Assembly: GCF_000027125.1 (NCBI RefSeq)
Contig: NC_017626.1
From: Escherichia coli 042
GTDB taxonomy: Bacteria; Pseudomonadota; Gammaproteobacteria; Enterobacterales; Enterobacteriaceae
Length of the DNA stretch: 64,000 bases
Strand: one strand, 5' to 3'
The position numbers were made by a program, and so were the translations under genes. Positions 19,486 through 41,514 of the stretch are shown one piece after another. Positions within the stretch are counted from its first letter, which is position 1. Each line of letters begins with the position of its first letter. The notes under the pieces are model-generated. The model searched no databases. It worked only from the letters and a program-made list of their open reading frames with translations, and was not told the origin of the DNA.

Positions 19486-19950
19486 ATGGAAAAGAAATTA
19501 CCCCGCATTAAAGCGCTGCTAACCCCCGGCGAAGTGGCAAAACGCAGCGGTGTGGCGGTATCGGCGCTGCATTTCTATGAAAGCAAAGGGTTGATTACCA
19601 GTGTCCGTAATAGCGGCAATCAGCGCCGATATAAACGTGATGTGTTGCGATATGTCGCAATCATCAAAATTGCTCAGCGTATTGGCATTCCGCTGGCGAC
19701 CATTCGTGAAGCATTTGGCGTGTTGCCCGAAGGGCATACATTAAGTGCGAAAGAGTGGAAACAGCTTTCGTCCCAATGGCGAGAAGAGTTGGATCGGCGC
19801 ATTCATACCTTAGTGGCGCTGCGTGACGAACTGGACGGATGTATTGGTTGTGGCTGCCTTTCGCGCAGTGATTGCCCATTGCGTAACCCGGGCGACCGTT
19901 TAGGAGAAGAAGGCACAGGCGCACGCTTGCTGGAAGATGAACAAAACTAA
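19486..19950 (+). CDS. soxR: MerR-family redox-sensing regulator SoxR, [2Fe-2S] (154 aa)
   Basis: Translation [49 protein letters not shown]...; C-terminal [14 protein letters not shown] cluster. Confidence 0.95.
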
Positions 19951-20083
19951 AGCGCCACAAGGGCGCTTTAGTTTGTTTTCCGGTCTTTGTCTTTCTCTCT
20001 ATCCCGCTGGTACACAGGAGGGTTTCCCCCGACGTCAACACACCTCATTCGAGCACGTGGTGGAGGTTCCGGTTGGTGTTGAT
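19944..20083 (-). ncRNA. ryjA: Putative small RNA RyjA; position inferred from K-12 synteny, not from a diagnostic sequence
   Basis: The soxR-ghxP spacer (546 bp) matches K-12, where ryjA abuts the soxR 3' end on the opposite strand; strand and ends are from memory. Confidence 0.3.
19949..19980. terminator. Rho-independent terminator at the soxR 3' end, probably bidirectional
   Basis: Hairpin aaagcgcc-acaa-gggcgcttt followed by a T-rich run. Confidence 0.65.
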
Positions 20084-39169: not shown

Positions 39170-41317
39170 TTACGCCAGTGCCGCTTCGCGCAGGCGAGTT
39201 TTCAACTTGTTGTACTCGTCAATCACGTACTGCTCGGCGGCGCGCTGATCGGCGATCGACTCGACGCGCACGGCGCAGTATTTGTATTCCGGCGTTTTCG
39301 TAATCGGGCTTAAGTTTTCGGTAACCAGCTCGTTACAGGCACCAATCCACCACTGGTAGGTCATATAAATCGCCCCTTTGTTCGGACGATCGCTGACCTG
39401 CGCACGGGTGATAATTTTGCCTTTACGCGAGTGCACCCAAACCAATGCCTCATCTTCAATACCCAGACGTTTGGCGTCTTCGGTATTGATTTGTGCGTAG
39501 CCAGGTTCATCAGCCAGCGCCGCCAGTGCCGCACAGTTACCGGTCATCGAACGGCAAGAGTAGTGACCAACTTCACGCACCGTTGACAGTACCATCGGAT
39601 ACTCGTCGGTGAGTTTGTCGATTGGCGCTACCCAGTCGCAGGTGAAGAACTGCGCCAGACCGTTCGGGGTATCAAACTTCTCTTTAAACAGATAAGAAGT
39701 CCCCTGATCGGCATCTGAAGTATCGCGGCAAGGCCACTGAATGAAGCCCAGTTCGCCCATTTTCTCGTAAGTCGCACCGTAGAAATCCGGGCACAGATGA
39801 CGCAACTCATCCCAGATCTCCTGGGTGTTGTTGTAGTGCATCGGATAACCCATACGAGTGGCAATTTCACTGATGATTTGCCAGTCCGTTTTCAGATCCC
39901 ATTTCGGTTCAACTGCTTTGAAGAAACGCTGGAAGCCACGGTCAGCCGCAGTAAACACGCCTTCATGCTCGCCCCACGACGTTGACGGTAAAATAACATC
40001 CGCCGCCGACGCGGTTTTGGTCATAAAGATGTCCTGAACGATAACCAGTTCCAGATCTTCAAAGGCTTTACGTACTGCCGACAGCTCCGCGTCAGTTTGC
40101 AGCGGATCTTCGCCCATAATGTACGCGGCACGCACTTCGCCATGCGCTGCGCGGTGCGGCAGCTCGCTGATGCGATAGCCGGTATGCGCTGGCAGGCTTT
40201 CCACGCCCCAGGCTTTGGCGAATTTCTCGCGGTTAGCCGGATCTTTCACGTACTGGTATCCCGGATACGTATCCGGCAGCGCGCCCATATCGCAGGCACC
40301 CTGCACGTTGTTCTGACCACGAACCGGGTTTACACCCGCATGCGGCTTACCGAGGTTACCGGTCAGCATCGCGAGGCTGGTCAGAGAACGCACGGTTTCC
40401 ACGCCCTGGTAGAACTGGGTTACACCCATGCCCCACAGGATGGCGGCGCTTTTCGCCTGGGCATACATCCGTGCCGCCTGACGAATCTCACTGGCGCTGA
40501 CGCCGGTGATATCTTCAACCGACTCCGGCGTGTAGCCTTCAACGATTTTACGATACTCTTCAAAGCCTTCTGTACGGGAAGCGACGAATGCTTTGTCGTA
40601 CAGATTTTCTTCAATAATGACATGGCCCATCGCATTCAACAGCGCGATGTTCGAGCCGTTTTTCAGTGCAATGTGGATGTCCGCAATGCGCGCGGTTTCA
40701 ATTTTGCGCGGATCGCAGACGATAATTTTCGCCCCGTTACGTTTAGCGTTAATTACGTGATTCGCCACGATTGGGTGGGAATCCGCCGGGTTGTACCCGA
40801 AAACGAACACTAAATCGGTATTATCAATTTCGTTAATAGCATTGCTCATTGCGCCATTACCGACCGATTGGTGCAGACCTGCAACCGATGGGCCGTGTCA
40901 GACACGAGCGCAGCAGTCAACGTTATTGGTACCAATAACGGCGCGCGCAAATTTTTGCATTACATAGTTGGTTTCGTTACCCGTACCACGCGAGGAGCCG
41001 GTCGTCTGGATGGCATCCGGACCGTACTTCTCTTTGATGGCGCTCAGGCGCTCGGCAACGTAATTCAGTGCCTCATCCCAGGAAACAGGTTCGAGTTTGC
41101 CGCCACGCTGGCGACGGATCATGGGGGTTTTCAGGCGCGGGGTCAGGATCTGGGTATCGTTAATGAAATCCCAGCCATAATAACCCTTCAGACACAGGGT
41201 ACCCTGGTTGGTTTTCCCCTGCGCTGCCTCCGCCCGGACGATTTTGCCGTTATCGACGACCAGGTTGATTTTGCAACCTGATGCGCAATAGGGGCAAACC
41301 GTGACGACTTTTTTCAT
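39170..41317 (-). CDS. fdhF: Formate dehydrogenase H (selenoprotein, 715 aa); in-frame UGA at codon 140 is read as selenocysteine
   Basis: Track ORFs 40898..41317 and 39170..40849 are one 716-codon frame joined through TGA at 40898..40900; N-terminal CPYCASGC Fe-S motif; SECIS hairpin directly 3' of the UGA. Confidence 0.95.
40858..40897 (-). promoter_or_regulatory. SECIS stem-loop directing selenocysteine insertion at the fdhF UGA
   Basis: mRNA sequence CACGGCCCAUCGGUUGCAGGUCUGCACCAAUCGGUCG immediately after the UGA matches the known fdhF SECIS. Confidence 0.85.
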
Positions 41318-41366: not shown

Positions 41367-41384
41367 TATGCATCTTTTATGCCA
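41367..41384 (-). promoter_or_regulatory. Sigma-54 (-24/-12) promoter of fdhF
   Basis: Minus-strand TGGCATAAAAGATGCA fits TGGCAC-N5-TTGCA; TGTCGTCA/TGACGA-type repeats further upstream could be FhlA sites. Confidence 0.5.
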
Positions 41385-41514
41385 CATTTTATTTGGGGTC
41401 ATTCCCTGATATTACGGGCACTATTTATTCAAAACTCTGACGAAAAACAGGCTGTCGTCAGTTTTGACGTGACGAAACGAAATACCGCGTGACAGCCATC
41501 ACGCGGCAGACATT

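What the first reader, a model, noticed from the sequence alone, without database searches (positions are those of the whole stretch)
40858..40900. fdhF selenocysteine recoding: in-frame UGA with adjacent SECIS hairpin
The six-frame track splits fdhF at 40898..40900, but the two ORFs are one frame, and the 37 nt 3' of the UGA match the known fdhF SECIS. This is established biology and is included so the split is not mistaken for a pseudogene.
Basis: established knowledge. Interest (0 to 1): 0.15.

Follow-up and report, generated by a model that had tools for sequence, protein, structure and literature searches.

The report
E. coli fdhF selenocysteine UGA and SECIS
This is the textbook E. coli formate dehydrogenase H gene, whose single in-frame UGA is read as selenocysteine with the help of an RNA hairpin just downstream; it is real, intact and already well known.

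Summary
Confirmed and ordinary. The window is E. coli chromosome. fdhF lies on the minus strand (41317..39170) as one 716-codon frame whose only internal stop is TGA at 40900..40898, codon 140. The protein matches solved FDH-H (1AA6) over all 715 residues, and the non-standard residue (X) in that chain falls at position 140. The RNA 3' of the UGA matches Rfam SECIS_2 over all 55 model positions (87.1 bits, cutoff 70). It also contains the published minimal fdhF SECIS exactly. The upper hairpin is at nt 15-31, 11 nt from the UGA, with U17 and a GGUC loop holding G23 and U24.

I compared 51 TGA-form and 60 Cys-form homologues from other species. Only the TGA forms freeze their synonymous sites here, keep GGUC (51/51 versus 3/60) and form the complete upper stem (23/30 versus 0/60 distinct sequences). 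selAB, selC and selD are each present in at least 5424 of 5426 complete E. coli genomes.

Nothing here is new.

The parts
39170..41317 (-). fdhF coding sequence: formate dehydrogenase H, 715 residues plus stop, in one continuous frame
   Evidence: Translation shows stops only at codons 140 and 716. RefSeq annotates one CDS. TIGR01591 scores 1094 bits. PDB 1AA6 aligns 1-715 with two substitutions, I214 for M and S687 for P.
40898..40900 (-). In-frame UGA, codon 140, read as selenocysteine
   Evidence: It aligns to X140 of 1AA6. PMC10945757 states that Sec140 is encoded by a UGA adjacent to the SECIS. Homologues carry TGA (53 pattern hits) or TGC/TGT (67 pattern hits) at this codon.
40851..40905 (-). 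Full SECIS element as modelled by Rfam SECIS_2 (55 nt), including an outer helix that pairs 5 nt 5' of the UGA with nt 46-50
   Evidence: 87.1 bits against a gathering score of 70, model positions 1-55. The outer helix is 98.7% paired in Sec forms but also 85% paired in Cys paralogues.
40887..40897 (-). nt 4-14 (CACGGCCCAUC): the 11-nt spacer, which is also the 5' arm of the lower stem
   Evidence: Coordinates. The 11-nt spacing is stated in PMC8659212. Lower-stem pairs A3:U42, C4:G41, C6:G40, G7:C39, G8.U38, C9:G37, C10:G36, A12:U34 and U13:A33 are all standard pairs.
40870..40886 (-). nt 15-31 (GGUUGCAGGUCUGCACC): the 17-nt upper stem-loop, the SelB-binding minimal SECIS
   Evidence: Exact match to the published minimal sequence (PMC10945757). 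Pairs G15:C31, G16:C30, U18:A29, G19:C28, C20:G27 and A21:U26. All six pairs form in 23 of 30 distinct Sec forms and in 0 of 60 Cys forms.
40884..40884 (-). U17, the bulged uridine contacted by SelB
   Evidence: Position. PMC8659212 names U17 as a SelB contact. The U17-bulged register fits the comparative data better than the U18-bulged register of the Rfam annotation: 14 versus 8 doubly changed cells.
40876..40879 (-). Apical loop GGUC (nt 22-25), holding G23 and U24
   Evidence: GGUC is present in 51 of 51 Sec forms and 3 of 60 Cys forms. PMC8659212 names G23 and U24 as conserved loop bases.
40859..40869 (-). nt 32-42 (AAUCGGUCGGU): the 3' arm of the lower stem

Best explanation
This is the canonical bacterial selenocysteine recoding site of E. 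coli fdhF.

During translation of fdhF mRNA, the UGA at codon 140 is decoded by Sec-tRNA(Sec), the selC product. That tRNA is charged with serine, and SelA converts the serine to selenocysteine using selenophosphate made by SelD. The tRNA is delivered by the specialised elongation factor SelB rather than by EF-Tu. The C-terminal domain of SelB binds the apical part of the mRNA hairpin immediately 3' of the UGA. That part is nt 15-31, with the bulged U17 and loop bases G23 and U24.

The hairpin sits 11 nt from the UGA. When the UGA is in the A site, the lower stem is unwound inside the ribosome while the upper hairpin remains at the mRNA entrance. This tethers SelB.GTP.Sec-tRNA(Sec) where it can outcompete release factor 2. 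The product is full-length FDH-H with Sec140 as a ligand of the molybdenum centre.

Shown here: the sequence, the frame, the identity with the characterised element, RNA-level selection specific to UGA-bearing homologues, and the presence of the sel genes in the species. Taken from published work: SelB binding, the ribosomal geometry and the competition with RF2.
For: Gene and frame:
- Single frame with one internal TGA, at codon 140.
- 100% DNA identity to E. coli fdhF; the gene is present in 5419 of 5426 complete genomes, and RefSeq annotates one CDS.
- FDH-H structure 1AA6 aligns over its full length with X at residue 140. TIGR01591 scores 1094 bits.

The element:
- Rfam SECIS_2 scores 87.1 bits against a cutoff of 70.
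- Exact match to the published minimal SECIS (PMC10945757).
- Every published determinant is in place: nt 15-31 hairpin, 11-nt spacing, U17, G23 and U24 (PMC8659212).
- The apical loop starts 18 nt after the UGA, inside the 16-37 nt range quoted for bacteria (PMC10778597).

Comparative test, on 51 Sec-form and 60 Cys-form homologues:
- Codon entropy at Ala+6, Gly+7 and Leu+8 is 0.00 bits in Sec forms and 1.71, 1.92 and 2.05 bits in Cys forms.
- Mean entropy of 4- to 6-fold codons at +4..+15 is 0.35 bits against 1.40 in the flanks of the same Sec genes (Mann-Whitney p = 8e-6). In Cys forms the figures are 1.77 and 1.52 (p = 0.98).
- GGUC loop is present in 51/51 Sec forms and 3/60 Cys forms. 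The upper stem is fully formed in 23/30 and 0/60 distinct sequences.
- Covariation: 91.6% of cells pair, against 22-47% for slid controls. Pair 15:31 is GC in 24, UA in 6 and UG in 1. Pair 18:29 is UA in 24 and AU in 6.
- The Rfam model gives 79-85 bits to Sec forms and 31-41 bits or nothing to Cys paralogues from the same genomes.

Machinery and conservation:
- selC is in 5424, selAB in 5425 and selD in 5425 of 5426 E. coli genomes.
- SelB has solved structures on the ribosome (5LZB/C/D) and as a C-terminal fragment (2PJP).
- The 55-mer is identical in 5411 of 5420 E. coli records.
Against: Nothing found argues against it. The limits are these.
- The thermodynamic signal alone is not significant (z = -1.28), and Sec and Cys forms have the same 43-nt folding energy.
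- The compensatory changes come almost entirely from one clade, Pasteurellaceae, so they probably represent about one event per pair.
- The Sec-form set is narrower taxonomically than the Cys-form set. The flanking codons of the same Sec genes serve as an internal control for this.
- The sel genes were checked across the species, not in the unknown genome the window came from. There is no tRNA gene in the window itself.
- No experiment was done here.
Confidence: 0.98

Rival explanations
1. fdhF is a pseudogene here: the TGA is a nonsense mutation, and the two ORFs are remnants of a broken gene.
For: Only the bare fact that an ORF lister splits the gene at the TGA.
Against: The TGA and its 55-nt context are identical in 5411 of 5420 E. 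coli records. The TGA is retained in 51 distinct homologues across Enterobacterales, Pasteurellaceae and a Coriobacteriales genome. There are no other stops or frameshifts in 716 codons. The solved structure has the non-standard residue at exactly this position. RefSeq annotates one CDS. Downstream codons are under protein-level conservation.
Confidence: 0.005
2. The stem-loop is an accidental consequence of the conserved peptide HGPSVAGLHQSVGNGA and has no RNA-level function.
For: The 43-nt folding energy is not unusual (z = -1.28) and equals that of Cys paralogues. The outer helix is 85% paired in Cys paralogues too. Cys paralogues still collect 31-41 bits from the Rfam model.
Against: Cys paralogues encoding the same HGPSVAGL peptide never form the complete upper stem (0 of 48) and use many codons where Sec forms use exactly one. 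Synonymous-site entropy falls only within codons +4..+15, and only in Sec forms. Compensatory pair changes occur that cost amino-acid changes (His to Leu and Gln to Lys in Pasteurellaceae). Published mutagenesis identifies U17 and G23 as essential (PMC8659212).
Confidence: 0.01
3. The UGA is read through mainly by a near-cognate standard tRNA (for example tRNA-Trp), or is suppressed independently of SelB, and Sec insertion is not the main route.
For: [quoted passage not shown] From memory only, it reports low-level SECIS-dependent read-through without selenium.
Against: The species carries the complete Sec machinery. The crystal structure has Sec at residue 140 (PMC10945757). Measured Sec recoding efficiency in vivo is 30-40% when selenium is sufficient (PMC4513850, abstract). 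The exact SelB-binding determinants are conserved only alongside a UGA.
Confidence: 0.01

Closest known systems
E. coli fdhF SECIS (Rfam RF01988, SECIS_2): the prototype bacterial selenocysteine insertion sequence
   Same: Identical in sequence to the characterised element. It contains the published 20-nt minimal SECIS, with nt 15-31 forming the hairpin, an 11-nt spacer, U17, G23 and U24, all 55 model positions matched, and the same gene and codon (140).
   Different: Nothing functional. At the outermost model pair this allele has U.G, where 18 of the 31 distinct homologue sequences have C:G; 12 of the 31, this window included, have U.G. The comparative data favour the published U17-bulged register over the U18-bulged register drawn in the Rfam consensus structure. 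The two registers are equivalent for the E. coli sequence.
SECIS elements of the other E. coli selenoproteins (fdnG, fdoG) and Rfam SECIS_3 (RF01989)
   Same: The same mechanism: an in-frame UGA followed by a SelB-binding hairpin inside the ORF of a molybdopterin formate dehydrogenase.
   Different: Different hairpin sequence. The window scores only 35.8 bits against SECIS_3 (cutoff 63). Neither fdnG nor fdoG is in this window: the only SECIS hit is the fdhF one.
Cys-containing FdhF paralogues of other Enterobacterales
   Same: The same protein family and a near-identical active-site peptide, CCARV-[C/U]-HGPSVAGL...GNGAMSN. They are often present in the same genome as a Sec form.
   Different: They have TGC or TGT instead of TGA, free synonymous variation, no conserved GGUC loop and no complete upper stem. 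They score 41 bits or less against SECIS_2. No such paralogue is present in this window.
Eukaryotic and archaeal SECIS elements
   Same: They also recode UGA to selenocysteine through an mRNA structure.
   Different: They lie in the 3' UTR far from the UGA, are larger, and in eukaryotes are bound by SBP2 rather than directly by the elongation factor (PMC10778597, PMC8659212).

Membership tests
Bacterial SECIS, fdhF type (Rfam RF01988) | Covariance-model score at or above the curated gathering score | tested here: met
   87.1 bits against 70, E = 1.4e-18, model positions 1-55 of 55. As a control, Cys paralogues score 31-41 bits or nothing.
Bacterial SECIS, fdhF type (Rfam RF01988) | In-frame UGA at the catalytic Sec/Cys position of a known selenoprotein family | tested here: met
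   Codon 140 aligns to X140 of 1AA6. Homologues have TGA or TGY at this codon.
Bacterial SECIS, fdhF type (Rfam RF01988) | 17-nt upper stem-loop at nt 15-31, 11 nt downstream of the UGA (PMC8659212) | tested here: met
   GGUUGCAGGUCUGCACC at 40886..40870, with 11 nt between it and the UGA and six standard pairs. Exact match to the published minimal SECIS.
Bacterial SECIS, fdhF type (Rfam RF01988) | Bulged U17, with G23 and U24 in the apical loop (the SelB contacts; PMC8659212) | tested here: met
   U at 40884, G at 40878 and U at 40877. The GGUC loop is present in 51 of 51 Sec forms. The U17-bulged register is supported by the 18:29 pair switching between UA and AU.
Bacterial SECIS, fdhF type (Rfam RF01988) | RNA-level selection beyond the coding constraint, linked to the presence of the UGA | tested here: met
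   Synonymous entropy is 0.35 bits inside the element against 1.40 outside in Sec forms (p = 8e-6), with no drop in Cys forms. The upper stem is complete in 23/30 Sec forms and 0/60 Cys forms.
Bacterial SECIS, fdhF type (Rfam RF01988) | [quoted passage not shown] | tested here: met
   Species level only: selC in 5424, selAB in 5425 and selD in 5425 of 5426 complete E. coli genomes. The window's own genome could not be queried, and none of these genes lies in the window (for selC).
Bacterial SECIS, fdhF type (Rfam RF01988) | Binds SelB and directs Sec insertion | not testable with these tools
   Inferred from sequence identity with the experimentally characterised element (PMC10945757, PMC7590224) and from solved SelB structures (5LZB/C/D and 2PJP).
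Formate dehydrogenase H (FdhF; NCBIfam TIGR01591) | Full-length match above the curated cutoff | tested here: met
   1094.4 bits against 666.25, residues 6-685 on profile positions 1-672.
Formate dehydrogenase H (FdhF; NCBIfam TIGR01591) | Near-identity to the solved E. coli enzyme, with active-site Sec140, His141 and Arg333 and the N-terminal Cys cluster | tested here: met
   1AA6 aligns 1-715 with two substitutions. U140, H141 and R333 are present, as are C8, C11, C15 and C42. The catalytic roles of these residues come from memory of the FDH-H structure literature.

The most novel reading that the evidence does not exclude
For this E. coli locus nothing novel remains. The only open thread is comparative.

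In the Morganella, Providencia, Proteus, Hafnia and Edwardsiella Sec forms, a C30-to-G change lets U17 pair with G30 and moves the bulge to G16. Three Pasteurellaceae sequences carry an A.C mismatch in the upper stem. A Coriobacteriales genome keeps only the GGUC loop on a different stem. If the bulged U really is dispensable or displaced in those lineages, SelB recognition would be more plastic than the E. coli rules (U17 essential) imply, perhaps with co-evolving SelB C-terminal domains.
Probability: 0.15. Interest if true: 0.25.

Novelty: already known. Interest (0 to 1): 0.05.

Why it matters
It matters for annotation only. The split in a six-frame view should be read as one selenoprotein gene, not as a pseudogene or two genes.

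The work does give one practical lesson. 'A foldable hairpin follows the UGA' is not a discriminating test in GC-rich coding sequence. The specific apical hairpin, a covariance-model score checked against Cys paralogues, and frozen synonymous sites are discriminating.

Tried and rejected
- Folding energy as evidence. The 43-nt MFE is -14.9 kcal/mol with z = -1.28, and Sec and Cys homologues have equal means. I rejected it as a criterion.
- The Rfam consensus register with U18 bulged. It fits the Pasteurellaceae sequences less well than the published U17-bulged register.
- Primary paper. The 1998 Nucleic Acids Research paper on the minimal SECIS (PMC147357) is not held, so the determinants are cited from the review PMC8659212, which summarises it.
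- sigma54 promoter. The consensus scan with 2 mismatches does not recover the motif upstream of fdhF, and the pattern is not enriched in the window (8 found against 14.8 expected). I make no promoter claim.
- tRNA scan of the window for selC found none. This is expected, because selC lies elsewhere on the chromosome.
- Pattern hits set aside. Several genome-contig hits were chance matches outside any intact frame (for example L021, L049, L057 and L102). Hits with a further in-frame stop in the 300-nt segment, and those too close to a locus end, were dropped before the comparative statistics.

Full report
**1. What is in the sequence**

The feature lies on the minus strand. Read 5' to 3', the mRNA-sense strand is ...GCT CGT GTC TGA CAC GGC CCA TCG GTT GCA GGT CTG CAC CAA TCG GTC GGT AAT GGC GCA ATG AGC..., with the TGA at window 40900..40898.

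The mechanical ORF list shows a 139-aa ORF (41317..40898) and a 559-aa ORF (40849..39170) on that strand. They share a frame. Translating 41317..39170 gives 716 codons with stops only at 140 and 716. The apparent 16-codon gap arises only because the ORF lister restarts at the first ATG after a stop.

**2. Identity of the gene**

- The 2.4-kb stretch is 100% identical to several E. coli chromosomes. It is present at 95% identity or more in 5419 of 5426 complete E. coli genomes, where it is annotated fdhF.
- RefSeq annotates a single 2148-nt CDS flanked by mdtP and yjcO, the same neighbours as in the window.
- With Cys substituted for the stop, the protein scores 1094 bits against NCBIfam TIGR01591 (cutoff 666).
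- It aligns end to end with PDB 1AA6/1FDO/2IV2/7Z0T, 'formate dehydrogenase H', 715 residues. Those chains have X at residue 140, exactly where the window has TGA. The only other differences are I214 for M and S687 for P.
- His141, Arg333 and the N-terminal cysteines C8, C11, C15 and C42 are all present.

**3. Identity of the RNA element**

- Rfam SECIS_2 (RF01988) matches 40905..40851 on the minus strand at 87.1 bits (gathering score 70, E = 1.4e-18). All 55 model positions match at posterior probability 1.00. It is the only SECIS hit in the whole window.
- A recent paper prints the minimal functional fdhF SECIS as ATCGGTTGCAGGTCTGCACC and states that Sec140 of FDH-H is encoded by a UGA adjacent to the SECIS (PMC10945757). 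That 20-mer occurs once in the window, at 40889..40870 on the minus strand, with no mismatch.
- A review lists the defining anatomy: about 40 nt; an upper 17-nt stem-loop at nt 15-31 that is 11 nt from the UGA; U17 bulged; G23 and U24 in the apical loop; U17 and G23 as SelB contacts (PMC8659212).
- Counting the U of the UGA as nt 1, the window has GGUUGCAGGUCUGCACC at nt 15-31 (40886..40870) and 11 nt between the UGA and that hairpin. U17 is at 40884, the GGUC loop is at nt 22-25 (40879..40876), and G23 and U24 are at 40878 and 40877. All six upper-stem pairs and nine lower-stem pairs are standard.
- The loop begins 18 nt after the UGA, inside the 16-37 nt range quoted for bacterial SECIS elements (PMC10778597).

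**4. Is it more than chance?**

By folding energy alone it is not. The 43-nt segment folds at -14.9 kcal/mol with z = -1.28, and 18 of 200 shuffles fold as well. I therefore looked for an independent test.

After removing chance hits and hits too close to a locus end, 51 distinct TGA forms (including the window) and 60 TGC/TGT forms with intact frames remained. About 25 genomes contribute one of each, for example L002/L003, L025/L026, L075/L076 and L090/L091. That controls for genomic background.

| Measure | Sec (TGA) forms | Cys (TGY) forms |
|---|---|---|
| Codon entropy at Ala+6, Gly+7, Leu+8 (bits) | 0.00, 0.00, 0.00 | 1.71, 1.92, 2.05 |
| Mean entropy of 4- to 6-fold codons, +4..+15 versus flanks | 0.35 versus 1.40 (Mann-Whitney p = 8e-6) | 1.77 versus 1.52 (p = 0.98) |
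| GGUC at nt 22-25 | 51 of 51 | 3 of 60 |
| All six upper-stem pairs formed (distinct sequences) | 23 of 30 | 0 of 60 |
| Mean 43-nt folding energy (kcal/mol) | -13.7 | -13.6 |
| Rfam SECIS_2 score, paralogues from the same genomes | 79-85 bits | 40.8, 31.5 or no hit |

- In the Sec forms, Ala+6, Gly+7 and Leu+8 each use a single codon (GCA, GGT, CTG).
- The equal folding energies show that 'foldable or not' cannot separate a SECIS from ordinary coding sequence here.
- A Haemophilus Sec form scores 54.2 bits against SECIS_2.
- Roughly half of the window's 87 bits is therefore specific to the RNA element rather than to the conserved peptide.

Covariation was counted on the 31 distinct 55-mers. 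The structure pairs 91.6% of cells, against 22-47% when the partners are slid. In the published U17-bulged register, pair 15:31 is GC in 24, UA in 6 and UG in 1, and pair 18:29 is UA in 24 and AU in 6. The U18-bulged register drawn in the Rfam consensus fits less well, with 8 instead of 14 doubly changed cells. The double changes are almost all in Pasteurellaceae, so they probably represent about one event per pair. They are notable because they required amino-acid changes (His to Leu, Gln to Lys).

It is 98.7% paired in Sec forms but also 85% paired in Cys forms, so it is mostly a by-product of the coding sequence.

**5. Conservation within the species, and the machinery**

The 55-mer is identical in 5411 of 5420 E. 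coli records, although 1291 records differ by 1-5% over the whole 2.4 kb.

- The selC sequence, recalled from memory, matched at 100% to features annotated tRNA-Sec and is present in 5424 of 5426 genomes.
- selA-selB, taken from the K-12 record, is present in 5425 of 5426 genomes.
- selD is present in 5425 of 5426 genomes.

None of these genes lies in the window, which has no tRNA gene. The genome the window came from cannot be queried directly.

**6. Mechanism**

The following is established knowledge, supported by the papers cited and by solved structures. Sec-tRNA(Sec) is made on the selC tRNA by SerRS and SelA, with selenophosphate from SelD. [quoted passage not shown] E. coli SelB has been solved on the ribosome (5LZB/5LZC/5LZD) and as a C-terminal fragment (2PJP). 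In 5LZD the SECIS sits near 16S rRNA helix h16 (PMC10945757). Recoding competes with RF2 termination and reaches 30-40% in vivo when selenium is sufficient (PMC4513850).

The link between the 11-nt spacing and unwinding of the lower stem inside the ribosome is inference from that literature, not something shown here.

**7. Rivals**

- Pseudogene: excluded by conservation of the TGA and by the intact frame.
- Hairpin as an accident of the coding sequence: excluded by the contrast with the Cys paralogues.
- Read-through by a standard tRNA as the main route: not supported.

**8. Verdict**

The finding is correct, and it is the textbook case. Novelty: already known. Interest: very low. It is useful only to prevent mis-annotation.

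Noticed in passing
L026, L056, L119, L075, L081, L108 (Sec-form fdhF of Morganella, Providencia, Proteus, Hafnia, Edwardsiella), nt 15-31 after the TGA: The upper hairpin is GGUUGCAGGUCUGCAGC (C30 changed to G). The predicted fold pairs U17 with G30 and bulges G16 instead of U17, although U17 is reported as essential in E. coli. Rfam SECIS_2 still scores 79-81 bits.
   Followed up: partly
L045, L079, L087 (Actinobacillus, Cricetibacter, Pasteurella) and L104 (Coriobacteriales MAG): Three Pasteurellaceae Sec forms have G19 changed to A, giving an A.C mismatch in the upper stem (MFE of the 17-mer is 0). The Coriobacteriales Sec form keeps TGA and GGUC at nt 22-25 on an unrelated stem, and its only hit is SECIS_3 at 29 bits.
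   Followed up: partly
About 25 genome pairs, e.g. L002/L003, L025/L026, L075/L076, L090/L091: Many Enterobacterales carry both a Sec-type fdhF and a Cys-type paralogue with a near-identical active-site peptide. The E. coli window holds the search pattern only once.
   Followed up: partly
window 41369-41384 (-) and 41430-41481 (-): Upstream of fdhF, TGGCATAAAAGATGCA has the GG-N10-GC spacing of sigma54 promoters, and repeated TTTCGTCA / TGACGA motifs lie further upstream. The strict consensus scan misses it (3 mismatches), and the pattern is not enriched in the window (8 found against 14.8 expected). From memory, fdhF is sigma54- and FhlA-dependent.
   Followed up: partly
window 41483-41508 (-): A GC-rich inverted repeat, CCGCGTGA...TCACGCGG, followed by a T-rich run lies just after the mdtP stop. 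It looks like an intrinsic terminator between mdtP and fdhF.
   Followed up: no
RefSeq records H1-H27 (E. coli genomes): Product names for the same fdhF gene are inconsistent: 'formate dehydrogenase subunit alpha', 'formate dehydrogenase H subunit alpha, selenocysteine-containing' and 'formate dehydrogenase N subunit alpha, selenocysteine-containing'. The last is a misnomer, because FdhF is FDH-H.
   Followed up: no
E. coli genome collection: fdhF matches lie on 4 records labelled as plasmids, and 7 of 5426 genomes have no match. One genome has two copies.
   Followed up: no
window 38091-38382 (+), 27321-27664 (+), 61043-61120 (-): Clusters of naRNA4 (REP/BIME-type repeat) matches. One cluster lies in the gltP-yjcO intergenic region just downstream of the fdhF neighbourhood.
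   Followed up: no
window 19943-20083 (-): A full-length match to the Hfq-binding sRNA sraL (RF01408) at 153 bits.
   Followed up: no
window 40868-41281 (+): A 137-aa TTG-started ORF lies antisense to the 5' part of fdhF and overlaps the SECIS region. There is no evidence that it is a gene, and it is most likely a by-product of the GC-rich coding strand.
   Followed up: no
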